From NCBI GenBank assembly GCA_951406725.2, contig OX597817.1, forward strand, positions 156,736,001 to 156,800,000: DNA of 64,000 nt. The letters run 5' to 3'. Made by a program: the position numbers. Position 1 is the stretch's first letter; each line of letters opens with the position of its first letter. The stretch is from Octopus vulgaris. Taxonomy: Eukaryota. Positions 1-53,500 of this stretch are shown piece after piece.

Positions 1-3000
1 TATATATATTAATGTTTTTGTTTCTTATTTTATTTTGATTTCTTCCAATTAAGGCTGTTTTATTCCCAGTCTGCACTGTGAAGCTTGTTTTTACTGCTAT
101 ACATGTGATATAAAGTATTGCATATATTTTATAAATATATATATATATATACACGTGTGTATATGTATGTATATATATATTTATATATATTTATATATAT
201 ATATATATATATAAACAAACTTGATAATCTTGTGTTATCGTGATATTCTTGTATGTTTATAATTAAATGTTTAGAGTATTCTGGAATGATATACCCATAA
301 AAAAGAAAATGATCTTCATTTGTTTTGTTTACCAAAATAGTTTCTTTGAGGCCTGAAGATCTGATCCCTTTTCAATACCTATAACTTAAATTCTTAAATT
401 ACTTTATATTTATATTGACTCCATCAAAATTCCTATTTACTAATCTTTACATTAGTAAATACTTTAAACCAAAAGTTGGCATCAACTGAGTAATTTATAC
501 ATCATATTCTTTTAGAAATTCCAAATTTTTACTATTTCACTTGAAAGATTTTTGGTATATCCAGGGTTCTCGTTGCATTAATGGTAATTAATAATTCTGA
601 TCAGAACATTTCATCATTAACCAGGTTAAAATGAACTTTTAATTAACTCTGATTTTTTTTTTCCCATTATTTAATCTTCTTAACTCTTTATTAATTATAA
701 TCCAGCATTTTCAATTTAAACTTATATACATATACTCTCACACATTGCTACACACAGATACAGAAAAACATACACAAATACATATAAATGTATATATAAT
801 ATATGTATCTATATGTGCGTGTGTATGGTTTTTTTTTTTTTTTTTTTTTGGTAATGTTCCATTTTCTCAATAATTCCTTTACAATAACTAATGTGTATTA
901 CTTAAAGCAAAACTCTGTAAACCATTTCCTTCTAATAACATTTCCAATTTACTCATCTTGAAATCTCTCCTTTTTAATGCTTGCATTTCGGATTGCTGTC
1001 GGATTTTTTTTTTTTTTTTTACCTACCTTTAATTGTAAAACAAACAAAAACAAAACTATTGACAAAAAAACAAACCCTTGATAGATGATGAGAGTGAGGG
1101 TAAAACAAGATCAGTCGCTTCTATTATTCAAATGTTTGAGCAAACATCTGACACTGCTTTGCAAAGTTCAGCTACAGACATTGTTCGTGAAGTCCAGAAA
1201 TCAGCACAAGCAACGTTACGCAAAGAATCTCAGGAATTCGTAAAGCAAGACTCTTCTGAGTGGGTTGTCATTGACGACAGCGATCTTGATGGCTTTGATG
1301 CAGAAAAGGTGCCATCAGCCAATGGTACTTATGTTGAAACAGAAGATTCTGCTCCAAAGGTAGAAGAATGGGTAAAAGTCTCTGCTGTCAAAGAGAAATT
1401 TGAGGACAAAATTAAGAATGGCTCCATGTCTGAAAAAACTATTATACGTGAAGCCACCAAAGTTCACACAAGCACTTTAGCAAAACATAAATCTTCAGAG
1501 AAAGCTGATGATGTTGATCAACCTTACGGTGTCCCGGAACCGCCCGACGCCCACTTTAAGACTCCCTCAGATGATGAAAATCTTGAATTTTCTGAGAAAT
1601 TGAAAATGTTTACTGGTAAACATGCCCAAAATTATTATGTCACAACTCAACCTGATGAGTTATTAAGCTCTGATGAAGAAACACCAGACACTACCTCGAA
1701 AGGAAGTGAAAGGTCATACCAAACTGCATCTGAAACGAGTGAAATCCGATCTGAAACTGTAAAAGTGTCTTCTACAGGAGAGCAAAAAAGTGAAGTCGTT
1801 GAAGAACGACGCGAAAGCACTTCATCACTGATTGCCAAGTTTGAGGAAGCTACAACTCGTGAAAAGCCGTCAAAGAAAGAGGCCATGTCATTTGACAAGG
1901 ATAGCAAAGAAACAGTACAAAAAGAAGTGACAAAATCTTGGAAAACTGATTCTTCTCAAAGTGCAGTCCAGGAGATAAAGGAAAGTCACGTATTCCAAGA
2001 GAAAAAAGAAAGCATTTCTTCAGAAGGGGAAACTCCTGATTTGAAGGAATTTCCTAAAGAGAGTAAAGAAACTGTATCATCAGTTGAGAAGAGCTTCAAG
2101 ACTGAAACAACAGAAATGAAACAGAAAGTAGAATATTCTGTAGATGATGGCAAAGTAAAAGAGATCTTCACTTCTGAAGATAGCCAAATTTTATCATCTA
2201 AGACTTTGGACAAAACTATATCCTCACTTGATAAAGATATCTCACCTGAACTTAAGGATAAATCACCTTCACCAGAACCTCAGCTGAAATCACGCTTACA
2301 TGAGGCTAAAGAGAAAACTCCCTCACCAGAGCCCCAACTTAAGTCTCCTTCACCAGAGCCCCAACTTAAGTCTCCTTCACCAGAACCTAAAGAGAAAACT
2401 CCTTCACCAGAACCTAAAGAGAAATCTCCTTCACCAAAACCTAAAGATAAATCTCCTTCACCTCTTCAGCTAAAGTCAAAGTCTCCCTCACCAGAACCTA
2501 AAGAAAAGACTCCATCACCACCTCACATGAAATCAAAGTCTCCCTCGCCACCTCACCTAAAGTCAAAGTCTCCCTCACCAGAACCTAAAGATAAGTCTCC
2601 CTCACCATCTCACCTGAAGTCAAAGTCCCCTTCACCAGAACTTAAAGATAAGACTCCTTCACCAAAGTTACAACTTAAGTCTTCTTCACCAAAACCTAAA
2701 GATAAGTCCCCCTCACCACCTCACCTAAAGTCAAAGTCCCCCTCGCCACCTCACCTAAAGTCAAAATCTCCCTCGCCTGAACCTAAAGATAAGTCTCCCT
2801 CACCACTTCAGTTAAAGTCAAAATCTCCCTCACCAGAAGTTAAAGACAAGTCTCCTTCACCACTCCACTTTAAGTCAAAGAGTCCTTCACCAGATCTGAA
2901 AGAGAAGTCTCCATCACCACCTCACCTAAAATCAAAATCCCCTTCGCCATCTCACCTAAAGTCAAAATCTCCCTCACCAGAACTTAAAGATAAGTCTCCC

Positions 3001-50500: not shown

Positions 50501-53500
50501 GGAAGTTCAGAGAGCTATTCTGGGAAAGAACGGTGGGGATCTAGTGATTAGTAAAGGGCCTGGTGGGGTAATGGAGACAATATTAGTGATAAGAGAGGAG
50601 AGATGAGTGAATCAGAAATGCCTGTGCAGAGATGGCATGAGAGCAGCCACCTCTGAGGAGCAGAGGCCAGTATAGTGACAGTACATAGATGCACTCACAC
50701 ATAATCATTACTGTCAATTGCAAGTGAGTATGGCTTGACAGTGTGTATCATGCTTTTGTTAATTGTTTTAGATGCCTATGTATTCTTGAGTGGACATAGA
50801 CACCCTTTCTGGCCCTTTTACCTTCGATCCAGTGGAATATCAAGAATATGACGGCTGGAAGGAGAGAAGGTTGCCCCAGCATAAGGCTGCTACTCATTTC
50901 CAGTTGAGTAGACTGGAGTAATGTGAAATGAAGTACCTCACTCGGGGACACAATCCACTGCCCAGTCCAGGAAATGAACTTACTACTATCTTATGATCAT
51001 AAGCCCAAATCCCCCTAACCACTAGGCCTCATTCCTTCACATATTTAGAGACAGTACATACACAAGTGTAGACACTTTTTTGATGGAAATGAGATGAGAA
51101 GTCCCTCTCAATTTGGACCCATCTAGATAGGTAGGGAGACACATACATTCTGTTTTTGCCAGTTATTTCTTCTATATTTACACTCACACATTTAAATGTC
51201 TAACATTGGATACAAATGTAAACAGTTCTAGAATGGTGGCCACTACATCAACATTGGTGTCAAACAAGACATGGTTAATTTTAGTGTTTATTTCAGATCA
51301 ATAGTCAGTTGACGAAATCACCTTCGATTAGAGTTAACATTGTTCTATGGATACATTCCTCTCCCAGCTAATCTAAGGAGGGGCAACCTTCCTATTTCTC
51401 AAGTTTCAAGAATACAGCAGAAAGAATTAAAGTTGTTACAAATTCTTTCAACTCAAAGACCTATTTTATTATATATTTTTTTTTAATATTTACATTTCTT
51501 TTTTTATTAAAGCAAAAATATTCATCAATTTTAGAATTGCTCCTTTTCTTTTTTTAACATAATTCTTTACCTGTTAATCCAGTCGCTTTGTTTCTTGTAA
51601 AAATTATGCCTTTATTATCTTTGACAGCTGAATTTATTTCTATTATCATTTGCAAGACAAACGTTTTGCTGTCTGCATGTCTGCAAAGCCAGTTGCTCTT
51701 TTAAATAATAATACGACAATATGGCTCTAAAATTTAGCATGGAAGTTACTAACCAGCATAATTTGTTTTTTTATGTTCTTTAAATGGTTTCATATTTTTA
51801 CAAAATCTCTATCAGATTAAGTTATTTGGATATTTGGTTAAACCGAAAGAAACTTACATGAGGAAAATAGCATTTAGCCCAATGTCGAACTGGAAATTCC
51901 TAGACAGGCAATTTATTTATTCAATTGAAATTAACTATACATGCAATTTTGTCACATCTTTTTGTTTCTTGCTATCCTCTGCTTCGTTTGGGTTTTAAAT
52001 TTCGTTCTTCTTTCTCCTGCTATTAGCCTAATGATGAAGAAAGAAATTCACAAAAAGACATACATGCGAGACGGACGAGAAGAAACATTTATTCAAGAAG
52101 AGTCTCGTGTGGAACAACAGAATGAAACACCAGAAGAATTGCGTGAAAGCATGCAGCAAATTATTGACCAGTTTATGCAAACTCCAAGTGAATTTGACCA
52201 ACGACAGTGTCTGGAAGACGATGTCTAGCTTCCAGTCCTGTTGTCTTCTAGCAATTTACTCCATCCTTAAAAATAAAAACATCTTCCCCCTACCCTCCTC
52301 TCTCTCTCATATCAATGAAGACATCTCTGGATCTCCTTAATACCCACCCCATCTCCATCTATCTATCTCTGCTGCTTTGACTGCAAAAAGTCTTTTGCAA
52401 ACTTCCAACATGCTTTGTGCATCATTCCAAGTTAAGTGCAAATCCTCTTCTCTCTCTGCCCTCCCCAATTTTTTTTCCTACATTATTCTTATTTTCATTT
52501 TTAACAATTGTTTGTTTTGTTTGATATCATCTGAAATCCTTCTTCCTCAAACCCCTACAAAACTGTCTCATTTTAGTTACCTTTGCTTTTTTTTTTTTTT
52601 TTTTTTGTAATTTTTGTTTTGATGATTGTTTTTGCTCTCGCAGAAACATCTATATATATTAGAGCAATGATTTTTTTTTTTTTAACCTACCTGATAATTT
52701 GAAATTTTAAAGAATTGTGTAAGTTTTGCTAACCATTTTGTTCTTTTGTCTGAAAACTCTTGACAATATTTATTTATATCTGAATTCTTTCTTGCCTTAG
52801 TTTACCCAAGTGTATTGGGGATTTCTTTAAAAGGAACTCGAATCTCAAAGCTTCCCACTCCCTAGTTCTCTCAACTCACTTGGAAGGAAAACTCTGAATA
52901 TTTAAAACTTAATGTCCATTGATAATTAAAGTTGCTTCTATAATGACTTTCTTCTAAGATGTCTAAGATATGCTTGGAATTAAAGAGACTTTCTGTCCAT
53001 CAATAAAGGACCTTAACAGTCCTTACTAGGAAAATAAGTGACCTTTACTTAATTCAAATGACCTGAACTAGTGTGTTTTTTTTGTTTTTACTTTTTAAAT
53101 TCCTAAACAGCTGGTTTAATCCATTACAAATACAAAATAACTTTGTTGTTAATGTAATTTTCGAAAGATATTTTAATTTTTTTTTCTTAATGGAACAAAA
53201 AAAACAACAAAACCTCTTGTAGTTCTCTTCATATTTGCAATAATTAATATGATGTTTAACGAGGAATATAGGTGTAAATTATATAAATTTTGTAAAACCT
53301 TAAAACTGATAACTTTTCTACTTGAAACAATAGCAGCCTATTTTGAACCCTGCTGCAATGTGACCTTATCTGTGACCTTACTCTCATTCCAAGATTTCCC
53401 TTGACACACAAAAAAAAAAAAAAAATAATTATAATACAAACCCTATTTAAATCTGAAAACTTTTCGTGTAACCCTGACATACAAGAAAACTCCTGATACG

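What the first reader, a model, noticed from the sequence alone, without database searches (positions are those of the whole stretch)
1085..52228. Modular giant-scaffold locus: six consecutive phase 1-1 cassette exons, two of them giant, probably a cephalopod giant ankyrin tail
Seen: exons of 7113, 846, 147, 9225, 57 and 567 nt all begin and end in phase 1 with lengths divisible by 3. Any subset can be skipped in frame (up to 64 combinations; tail from under 100 aa to ~6,070 aa) before a phase 1-2/phase 2 terminal pair. Each cassette carries a different repeat chemistry: basic KSPSP, poly-Glu, Thr-rich TTSKTEEPVV, Tyr/Asp/Gly. Known: bilaterian giant ankyrins (AnkG/AnkB, Drosophila Ank2-L/XL, C. 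elegans UNC-44 AO13) gain size through giant exons and organise axons. Inferred: this is a splice-tunable axonal scaffold with two independently selectable internal giant exons.
Basis: partly seen in the sequence, partly recalled or inferred. Interest (0 to 1): 0.85.

Follow-up and report, generated by a model that had tools for sequence, protein, structure and literature searches.

The report
Octopus giant ankyrin gene tail
This stretch is the back three-quarters of the common octopus's giant ankyrin gene, a membrane-to-cytoskeleton scaffold already present in public gene models under the misleading name "titin", so it is a correctly spotted but largely ordinary member of a known kind.

Summary
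The two giant open exons are real: 7113 nt at 1085-8197 and 9225 nt at 29334-38558. Their translations are exact substrings of a RefSeq model named "titin isoform X43 [Octopus vulgaris]" (7430 aa). That model and its orthologues carry ANK repeats, ZU5, UPA and a death domain just upstream.

Four of the six cassettes are confirmed exactly as drawn: A, the 147-nt exon, H and the 57-nt exon. Exon B is annotated with a nearer donor (522 nt, still phase 1-1). The 567-nt Tyr/Asp/Gly "exon" appears in 0 of 22 models and looks like an intronic 21-nt minisatellite.

Models show B and the 147-nt exon skipped independently. The two giant exons occur together in 22 of 22 models, and no model with only one of them was found. 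The "64 combinations" claim therefore remains inference.

Exon H, part of B and the terminal peptide are conserved in bivalve and gastropod ankyrins. Exon A matched only octopod proteins.

Giant ankyrins with two long exons are already published for molluscs (Jegla 2016). This is a new member of a known kind, of modest interest.

The parts
1085..8197 (+). Giant exon A (7113 nt, phase 1-1), first post-death-domain tail exon
   Evidence: Unique AG/GT solution. Its 2370-aa translation is an exact substring of P0121. Present in 22 of 22 models, though selected models by exon A's start. No Pfam family.
2242..4007 (+). KSPSP tandem array inside exon A; basic block (pI about 10.1 over 596 aa) in an otherwise acidic exon
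   Evidence: TRF periods 27/57/114/171 nt. 45 KSPSP copies and pI values.
13344..13865 (+). Cassette exon B as annotated (522 nt, phase 1-1)
   Evidence: Donor GAAG|gtgagt. Residues 1-172 are present in 19 of 22 models and skipped in P0106, P0111 and P0121. Residues 93-148 are 61-62% identical to oyster ankyrins.
13866..14189 (+).
   Evidence: In 0 of 22 models. The frame stays open 416 nt past the annotated donor, P about 0.0015 against intronic positions. Its motif SQIHITVESGLDTLGC matches SPIYITVESGLDKLAC in the Mya arenaria protein P0063.
26068..26214 (+). Cassette exon of 147 nt (poly-Glu), phase 1-1
   Evidence: One of 6 candidates. Matches models. Present in 20 of 22 and skipped in P0004 and P0106.
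29334..38558 (+). Giant exon H (9225 nt, phase 1-1), the mollusc-conserved giant exon
   Evidence: Unique AG/GT solution. Exact substring of P0121. Present in 22 of 22 models. Homologous blocks occur in bivalve and gastropod proteins.
30997..32224 (+). Thr-rich TSKTEEPVVT tandem array in exon H
   Evidence: TRF period 30 nt, 42.1 copies. Translation.
36203..38191 (+). Conserved tail module (exon H residues 2290-2952). It holds four [DD-S-SSSL-EFE-LE] motifs with EFE starting at 36542, 36689, 36812 and 36926, then DSLE-type repeats and a C-terminal KKKVYTMxEWEAM helix.
   Evidence: Motif positions. Alignment A1 shows nearly invariant S-S-L-E-F-E-L-E columns. 46 of 50 representative hits carry at least one EFExLE. 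AlphaFold2: 511 of 663 residues have pLDDT below 50, with helices only at the four motifs and at 641-660.
38511..38558 (+). 48 nt removed when an alternative phase-1 donor inside exon H (CACA|gtatgt at 38510) is used
   Evidence: O. sinensis model P0120 reads ...LLYHH-K-HTDLPQQ, which the window sequence explains.
43774..43830 (+). 57-nt exon, phase 1-1
   Evidence: One of 11 candidates. Matches models at 100%. Present in 22 of 22.
44771..45337 (+).
   Evidence: In 0 of 22 models. TRF 21 nt x 18.2 copies. 139 possible phase-1 AG/GT pairs in the same frame. Three frames are open. The donor has T at +3, unlike the six donors that models support.
49341..49401 (+). Penultimate exon (61 nt, phase 1 to 2)
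   Evidence: tblastn of model tails. Coordinates and splice sites. Present in 22 of 22.
52027..52228 (+). Terminal coding exon (phase 2 entry, stop at 52226-52228). It encodes a 66-aa C-terminal peptide conserved across molluscs.
   Evidence: Sequence. 100% identical to octopod models. 19 invariant columns among 7 mollusc sequences. AlphaFold2 predicts a beta-hairpin (2-14, 17-29) plus a helix (36-51), mean pLDDT 77.

Best explanation
The window holds the 3' three-quarters of the canonical ankyrin gene of Octopus vulgaris. RefSeq names it 'titin'. The O. bimaculoides orthologue is LOC106871604.

Upstream exons, outside the window, encode the ANK-repeat membrane-binding domain, ZU5-ZU5-UPA and the death domain. 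The window encodes the tail after the death domain, about 5,600 residues in model P0121. The tail is built from two non-homologous giant exons (A, 7.1 kb; H, 9.2 kb), three small exons (B, 147 nt, 57 nt) and a fixed terminal pair. Every intron from the one before A to the one before the penultimate exon is in phase 1. Any of these exons can therefore be dropped without breaking the frame, and the conserved C-terminal peptide is kept in all products.

Shown: exon coordinates and phases. Identity with the RefSeq models. Ankyrin domains upstream in those models. Independent inclusion or skipping of B and the 147-nt exon in the models. An alternative donor in H. Conservation of H, part of B and the terminal peptide in bivalves and gastropods. 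Predicted disorder of the conserved module, apart from short helices at its motifs.

Inferred: by analogy with Drosophila Ank2-L/XL and vertebrate giant AnkG/AnkB, the N-terminal part anchors membrane proteins to spectrin. The long, acidic, disordered tail reaches into the axoplasm. It would present short docking motifs to cytoskeletal partners such as microtubules: four EFExLE helices, DSLE repeats and a basic KSPSP array likely to be phosphorylated. Splicing would tune which motifs are present.

Whether the giant exons themselves are ever skipped is not shown.
For: Exons A and H are exact substrings of P0121, and the tiling of P0121 1831-7430 is complete apart from junctions. Ank, ZU5, UPA_2 and Death were found in P0003 1-1863, with exon A starting at 1865. 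The same Pfam set is precomputed for 18 of 22 octopod models.

Bivalve 'ankyrin-2-like' proteins of Mytilus, Saccostrea and Crassostrea carry the same tail module behind ANK/ZU5/UPA/Death. All 24 hits of 73 that carry an organism name are molluscs, and 21 of those have ankyrin domains.

Cassette matrix: B is in 19 of 22 models and the 147-nt exon in 20 of 22. All four combinations are seen: 18 B+C+, 1 B+C-, 2 B-C+, 1 B-C-. An alternative donor in H is used by P0120.

Phases and splice sites. Disorder with helical motifs. The tail has no Pfam domain.

Precedents. Jegla 2016 (PMC5135030, passages read) reports long exons after the death domain in protostomes, two tandem long exons at 8 of 23 loci, and non-homologous ones in Aplysia. 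Weber 2019 (PMC6703079, passages read) reports that the Drosophila Ank2-L and Ank2-XL tails organise microtubules.
Against: All transcript evidence is second-hand. The models are automatic predictions, and no RNA reads were available. Neuronal or axonal expression was not tested.

4 of the 22 models (P0103, P0004, P0120, P0122) have no ankyrin domains. P0004 begins with a different repeat-rich stretch of about 2,030 aa instead. Part of the locus's output may therefore be an ankyrin-less tail protein.

No partner of any tail motif was identified. PDB sequence and profile searches gave nothing meaningful, the Atlas gave nothing and the fold search gave nothing.

Giant-exon skipping, which the phase design permits, is seen in none of the models examined.
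Confidence: 0.88

Rival explanations
1. One reading: six cassettes including the 567-nt exon, with the two giant exons chosen independently, giving up to 64 tail forms from under 100 aa to about 6,070 aa.
For: All exons are symmetric in phase 1, so every subset is in frame. B and the 147-nt exon are skipped independently in models. Drosophila uses two alternative giant tails (PMC6703079). If intron phases were independent with about 30% in phase 1 (a recalled figure), six in a row would be expected about 7 times in 10,000.
Against: A and H co-occur in 22 of 22 models. No model with only one giant exon appeared in the length ranges where it would fall. The 567-nt exon is in 0 of 22 models and is a minisatellite with 139 equally valid AG/GT pairs. 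Automatic models are weak evidence either way.
Confidence: 0.12
2. The tail exons serve mainly a separate, ankyrin-less giant protein. It would be made from an internal promoter and a further giant exon upstream of the window, so the locus would behave as two genes sharing a 3' end.
For: P0004 (O. bimaculoides 'titin-like isoform X6', 7658 aa) starts with about 2,030 aa of unrelated repeats. It joins P0003 only 25 residues before exon A (69 residues aligned in all) and has no TPLH motif. P0120 (O. sinensis 'titin isoform X3') lists no Pfam domains.
Against: 18 of 22 models join the same tail to ANK/ZU5/UPA/Death. Bivalve orthologues do the same. The ankyrin-less models are predictions, and the older ones may be partial.
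Confidence: 0.25
3. It is a titin/connectin-like elastic muscle protein, as the RefSeq names say, or a MAP1B/Futsch homologue, as the Biomphalaria record is named.
For: Source names are 'titin isoform X31/X3/X43', 'titin-like' and 'microtubule-associated protein futsch, partial'. The composition is rich in Pro, Glu, Val, Lys and Thr, with tandem repeats.
Against: No Ig, fibronectin-III, kinase or any other Pfam domain was found in the four large tail exons. The N-terminal part is a complete ankyrin. The names are automatic.
Confidence: 0.03

Closest known systems
Mollusc giant ankyrins, e.g. Aplysia californica ankyrin with two tandem long exons (Jegla et al. 2016, PMC5135030; passages read)
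   Same: Canonical ANK-ZU5-ZU5-UPA-DD ankyrin with long exons over 3 kb downstream of the death domain. Two tandem long exons that are not homologous to each other. Mollusc lineage.
   Different: No cephalopod is mentioned in the passages I read, and 'octopus' occurs 0 times in the main text. The paper's tables of species and exon lengths are supplements I could not open. The phase-1 symmetry, the small cassettes and the conserved EFExLE module do not appear in the passages I read.
Drosophila Ank2-L and Ank2-XL (Weber et al. 2019, PMC6703079, passages read; Koch 2008, Pielage 2008 and Stephan 2015 as cited there)
   Same: Neuronal giant isoforms made by large exons after the death domain. Repeat-rich tails that link membrane adhesion molecules to microtubules. 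Two distinct giant tail segments.
   Different: No sequence match. The phmmer search with the last 1200 aa of exon H returned ANK-bearing hits only from molluscs (2 of 50). In the fly the two tails define alternative isoforms. In octopus models both giant exons are used together.
Vertebrate giant ankyrin-G (480 kDa) and ankyrin-B (440 kDa)
   Same: The same gene family and the same principle: one huge exon adds a long unstructured neuronal tail.
   Different: The vertebrate giant exon sits between UPA and the death domain (PMC12798937 abstract in the listing; PMC5135030). Here both giant exons lie after the death domain. No sequence similarity was detected. The resemblance of SSEWVVIDD in exon A to the GABARAP-binding LIR of giant ankyrins is recalled only, and a PDB sequence search found no support.
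C. elegans UNC-44 giant isoform (named in the introduction of PMC5135030)
   Same: A long exon downstream of the death domain and a role in axons.
   Different: No homology was detected. Nothing further was tested here.

Membership tests
Canonical ankyrin (ANK1/2/3, Ank2, UNC-44 type) | N-terminal array of about 24 ANK repeats | tested here: met
   The feature lies outside the window, in models that contain the window's exons. Pfam Ank, Ank_2, Ank_3, Ank_4 and Ank_5 were found in P0003 1-1863. The same families are precomputed for P0121 and 17 others.
Canonical ankyrin (ANK1/2/3, Ank2, UNC-44 type) | ZU5-ZU5-UPA spectrin-binding supramodule followed by a death domain | tested here: met
   ZU5 (2 stretches), UPA_2 at 1516-1646 and Death at 1688-1764 in P0003. 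The same order occurs in Mytilus P0013.
Canonical ankyrin (ANK1/2/3, Ank2, UNC-44 type) | These domains and the window's exons lie on one transcript | tested here: inconclusive
   Met at the level of automatic gene models: exact substrings of P0121. No RNA reads or genome context were available. 4 of 22 models lack the ankyrin part.
Giant ankyrin (definition of Jegla 2016: long exon over 3 kb downstream of UPA) | At least one exon over 3 kb downstream of the UPA domain | tested here: met
   Exons of 7113 and 9225 nt. Exon A starts at residue 1865 of P0003, after Death at 1688-1764. Definition from PMC5135030.
Giant ankyrin (definition of Jegla 2016: long exon over 3 kb downstream of UPA) | Neuron-specific inclusion of the long exon and an axonal role | not testable with these tools
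   No expression data were available.
   A, B (522 or 846 nt), the 147-nt exon, H (9225 or 9177 nt) and the 57-nt exon are all phase 1-1.
   Met for B (19 of 22) and the 147-nt exon (20 of 22). Not met for A, H and the 57-nt exon (22 of 22 each, A by design of the search). The 567-nt exon is never included. No single-giant models were found.
Titin/connectin | Arrays of Ig and fibronectin-III domains and a kinase domain | tested here: not met
   0 Pfam families in the four large tail exons at E up to 0.1. Only ankyrin-type domains were found in the N-terminal part.
MAP1B/Futsch | Conserved MAP1 N- and C-terminal regions | tested here: inconclusive
   No Pfam family of any kind was found in the tail exons. 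I did not check whether Pfam holds a model for those regions. The name comes from one automatic record.

The most novel reading that the evidence does not exclude
The mollusc ankyrin tail may contain an undescribed, phylum-wide docking platform. It would comprise four short helical [acidic-Ser-rich]-SSL-x-EFE-x-LE motifs, a run of DSLE repeats, a KKKVYTMxEWEAM helix and an invariant C-terminal beta-hairpin-plus-helix peptide. The platform would recruit a conserved cytoskeletal or signalling partner. The uniform phase-1 design would exist to keep this platform while lineage-specific giant repeat exons, such as the octopod-only exon A, are added or removed. The same tail may also be made as an ankyrin-less giant protein from an internal start.
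Probability: 0.2. Interest if true: 0.5.

Novelty: new member of a known kind. Interest (0 to 1): 0.3.

Why it matters
The work corrects a naming error. The octopus, and Argonauta, 'titin' or 'uncharacterized' RefSeq models at this locus are the giant ankyrin of cephalopods.

Cephalopods have large, fast, unmyelinated axons and a complex brain, so a defined giant ankyrin with mapped exons is a useful entry point. It allows one to ask whether ankyrin-based axon organisation, thought ancestral to bilaterians (Jegla 2016), operates there.

The exon map also separates a mollusc-conserved giant exon (H) from a fast-evolving, octopod-restricted one (A). It points to a small set of conserved short motifs that can be tested for partners.

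It does not reveal a new kind of system.

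Tried and rejected
- Pfam on the four large tail exons: 0 families.
- PDB sequence searches. The start of exon A, testing the recalled LIR resemblance, gave only chance-level hits with E at least 0.24. The EFExLE block gave 0 hits. The profile of alignment A1 gave one spurious match to a myc-tagged Notch1 construct.
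- ESM Atlas with the conserved module: no usable hit.
- Foldseek of the terminal-peptide model against PDB: 0 matches at E up to 0.001.
- Rfam at gathering threshold and ARAGORN on the whole window: 0 and 0.
- The search for homologous proteins with exon A, 'longer' (4149-5000 aa only): one hit, a Helicoverpa hypothetical protein at 41% identity over 23% of the query. I take this to be low-complexity similarity.
- Literature. 'giant ankyrin' plus 'cephalopod' gave 1 paper, with the terms only in its reference list. 'LOC106871604' gave 0 papers. 'ankyrin' plus 'octopus' plus 'long exon' gave 1 paper whose title and abstract concern neuronal wiring receptors; I did not open it.
- Rejected: a titin reading and a MAP1B/Futsch reading (no supporting domains), and the 567-nt exon as a real cassette.

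Full report
**What is in the sequence**

The window has no N. On the + strand there are two stop-free frames, 1063..8226 (2387 aa) and 29306..38575 (3089 aa). All four are read from the third base, which means phase 1 at both ends.

Against 3286 sampled intronic positions of the same window the median distance to a stop is 36 nt. The two giant frames are therefore not chance.

The 147-nt and 57-nt exons cannot be fixed from sequence alone: there are 6 and 11 phase-1 candidates. One of each has a good pyrimidine tract and matches public proteins, at 26068-26214 and 43774-43830.

The terminal pair is 49341-49401 (61 nt, phase 1 to 2) and 52027-52228 (phase 2, stop included).

- 45 KSPSP in a 596-aa block of pI about 10.1 inside exon A.
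- A poly-Glu stretch in the 147-nt exon.
- A 30-nt, roughly 42-copy Thr-rich array in exon H.
- A 21-nt, 18-copy array under the 567-nt 'exon'.
- Four EFExLE motifs in exon H.

**What it is**

I searched exon by exon. I did not build or search a joined translation of the window's exons.

A phmmer search of the last 1200 residues of exon H against 1.84 billion representative proteins gave 50 hits at E up to 0.001. Two of them were about 7,500 aa long and 98% identical. One, P0003, has Pfam Ank families, ZU5 (two stretches), UPA_2 and Death in its first 1863 residues. Exon A aligns from residue 1865.

A word-indexed search seeded with the start of exon A returned 22 proteins of 4133-13152 aa:
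- 18 from Octopus bimaculoides (LOC106871604 isoforms X27-X43, one 'titin isoform X35', one older 'titin-like isoform X6', one UniRef entry).
- 2 from O. sinensis ('titin isoform X31' and 'X3').
- 1 from O. vulgaris ('titin isoform X43', P0121).
- 1 from Argonauta hians ('titin-like').

Eighteen of the 22 carry precomputed Ank, ZU5, UPA and Death domains. The translations of exons A and H are exact substrings of P0121. Every sampled 12-mer (one every 6 residues) of P0121 residues 1831-7430 is found in a window frame, except those spanning the five junctions.

The window is therefore the 3' part of the O. vulgaris ankyrin gene and encodes about 75% of that model. The names 'titin' and 'futsch' are automatic. 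The tail exons have no Pfam domain at all.

**Exon-by-exon check against the 22 models**

| Exon | Present in models |
|---|---|
| A, H, 57-nt, penultimate, terminal | 22 of 22 (A by design of the search) |
| B (residues 1-172) | 19 of 22; absent from P0106, P0111 and P0121 |
| 147-nt | 20 of 22; absent from P0004 and P0106 |
| B extension (residues 173-281) | 0 of 22 |
| 567-nt | 0 of 22 |

All four B/147 combinations occur: 18 with both, 1 with B only, 2 with the 147-nt exon only, and 1 with neither.

*Exon B.* The models end B at GAAG|gtgagt, so the annotated exon is 13344-13865, which is 522 nt and still phase 1-1. The frame stays open 416 nt beyond that donor, which happens at 0.15% of intronic positions. 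A 19-residue stretch of the extension (13 identical) matches the Mya arenaria protein P0063. An alternative donor at 14189 is plausible but unannotated.

*The 567-nt exon.* It coincides with a minisatellite. Three of six frames are open across it. The frame offers 12 phase-1 AG and 46 phase-1 GT sites, or 139 pairs. Its donor has T at +3, unlike the six donors that models support. I read it as intronic.

*Exon H.* One O. sinensis model (P0120) uses an alternative phase-1 donor 48 nt inside the end of exon H, at 38510.

**Are the giant exons selectable?**

The phases allow it. The evidence I could reach does not show it. A and H are together in 22 of 22 models.
- A model with the ankyrin head plus H alone would be about 5,100-5,300 aa. 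None from octopus appeared in the search of 1690-5380 aa proteins with the H module.
- A model with A alone would be about 4,400-4,600 aa. None appeared in 4149-5000 aa or 4133-13152 aa.

Automatic models built from short reads are weak evidence for or against skipping of 7-9 kb exons.

**Conservation**

| Exon | Conservation outside octopods |
|---|---|
| H | Blocks 1-235, about 1028-2073 and about 2226-3004 match bivalve and gastropod proteins |
| B | Residues 93-148 are 61-62% identical to oyster ankyrins |
| Terminal peptide | 53-65% identical; 19 invariant columns among 7 sequences |
| A | No match at E up to 1e-4 in the seven bivalve and gastropod proteins tested; found only in octopods, 79-80% in Argonauta |

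Of the 73 hits, the 24 that carry an organism name are all molluscs (Mytilus trossulus and M. californianus, Saccostrea, Crassostrea virginica, Mya, Biomphalaria, Nucella). Of those 24, 21 have ankyrin domains. Of the 50 representative hits, 46 carry at least one EFExLE motif, and only 2 carry ANK repeats; both are molluscs. No fly, worm or vertebrate ankyrin was recovered.

Exon lengths differ between species, mostly in the repeat arrays:

| Species | A (aa) | H (aa) |
|---|---|---|
| O. vulgaris | 2370 | 3074 |
| O. sinensis | 2341 | 3083 |
| O. bimaculoides | 2258 | 3063 |

**Structure and likely mode of action**

AlphaFold2 on the conserved module, with a 12-row alignment, gave mean pLDDT 46.5, with 511 of 663 residues below 50. 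It predicted helices only at the four EFExLE motifs (110-124, 158-174, 203-210, 236-269, the last at pLDDT above 90) and at 641-660.

The 66-aa terminal peptide is predicted as a beta-hairpin plus a helix, with mean pLDDT 77. It has no significant fold match.

The tail is acidic (pI 4.3-4.9) and rich in Ser, Glu and Thr. This fits a long disordered tether that carries short docking motifs.

The functional reading is taken by analogy from Drosophila Ank2-L/XL (PMC6703079, passages) and from the vertebrate giant ankyrins. In that reading the membrane-spectrin anchor sits at the N-terminus and the tail reaches microtubules or other axonal partners. None of this is shown here.

Three motif resemblances are recalled consensus patterns and only leads:
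- An LIR-like SSEWVVIDD at the start of exon A.
- RVxF-like RSVRF, KRVTF and RRVTF.
- A conserved YENV in exon B.

The one I tested, the LIR against PDB sequences, found nothing.

**Comparison with what is known**

Jegla et al. 2016 (PMC5135030; I read passages found by term search) reported the following:
- Giant ankyrins occur in all bilaterian groups examined, including molluscs.
- Long exons lie downstream of the death domain in protostomes.
- 8 of 23 loci have two tandem long exons, and those of Aplysia are not homologous to each other.
- No homology was detectable between long exons of different phyla.

The octopus locus fits this picture exactly. The word 'octopus' does not occur in that paper's main text. 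Its species and exon tables are supplements that I could not open, so cephalopods or these exon sizes may be listed there.

Three literature searches found no description of a cephalopod giant ankyrin.

**Verdict**

The identification as a cephalopod giant ankyrin tail is right. The combinatorial-splicing mechanism is only partly supported.

The locus is a new, mis-named member of a known kind. What may be new is modest: the strict phase-1 architecture, and a mollusc-wide conserved set of short motifs and a terminal peptide in an otherwise fast-evolving tail.

**Left unchecked**
- RNA evidence of any kind.
- Genome context upstream of the window.
- The closed collections metagenome contigs and viral contigs.

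Noticed in passing
outside the window (proteins P0119, P0120, P0121, P0122, P0111, P0004): Public records name this ankyrin gene 'titin' or 'titin-like' in O. sinensis, O. vulgaris, O. bimaculoides and Argonauta hians. A Biomphalaria orthologue fragment is named 'futsch'. Domain content shows these names are wrong.
   Followed up: yes
outside the window, upstream (P0004 residues 1-2031; P0120): Some models replace the whole ANK/ZU5/UPA/death part with about 2,030 aa of other repeats (GVYHVDxPVxLExLHRVD units and HECRYGLKHTDQHGDD units). They join the common sequence 25 residues before exon A. This may be a third giant exon and an ankyrin-less tail isoform.
   Followed up: partly
window 38504-38558: An alternative phase-1 donor (CACA|gtatgt at 38510) lies 48 nt inside the end of exon H. 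It is used by one O. sinensis model.
   Followed up: yes
window 13866-14281: The frame stays open 416 nt past the annotated donor of exon B. It contains a motif shared with a Mya arenaria protein and an RVxF-like RSVRF.
   Followed up: partly
window 13620-13790 (exon B residues 93-148): This is the best-conserved stretch of the small exons (SSYENVYDGV...DIGDRFDTKQ), 61-62% identical to oyster ankyrins. It includes a YENV that resembles a phosphotyrosine docking site; the resemblance is recalled and not tested.
   Followed up: partly
window 1252-1278: SSEWVVIDD near the start of exon A resembles, from memory, the Atg8/GABARAP-binding LIR of vertebrate giant ankyrins. It is conserved in O. bimaculoides. 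The PDB sequence search gave no support.
   Followed up: partly
window 44866-45251: A 21-nt minisatellite of 18 copies at 82% match, open in three frames, in the intron between the 57-nt exon and the penultimate exon.
   Followed up: yes
window 12346-12611: An 85-nt tandem repeat of 3.1 copies at 96% match, in the intron between exons A and B.
   Followed up: no
window 30955-32850 (- strand): A 631-aa open frame antisense to the Thr-rich array of exon H. It is most simply explained as a by-product of the repeat.
   Followed up: no
window 57402-58368 (- strand): Fragments of a mariner/Mos1-type transposase in three frames. The piece at 58108-58368 matches the Mos1 HTH domain at E 2e-8.
   Followed up: partly
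window 61373-63998 (- strand): LTR-retrotransposon pol remnant with RVT_1, RNase H, integrase zinc-binding and integrase core domains. It is split into at least three frames and runs off the window end.
   Followed up: partly
window 38700-42460: Dense TA/CA-type microsatellites in the intron after exon H give many short spurious open frames.
   Followed up: no
window 52027-52225: The terminal peptide is predicted as a long beta-hairpin with a DG turn followed by a helix. From memory it resembles the basic KK...DG...E segment at the C-terminus of vertebrate ankyrins. This was not tested.
   Followed up: partly
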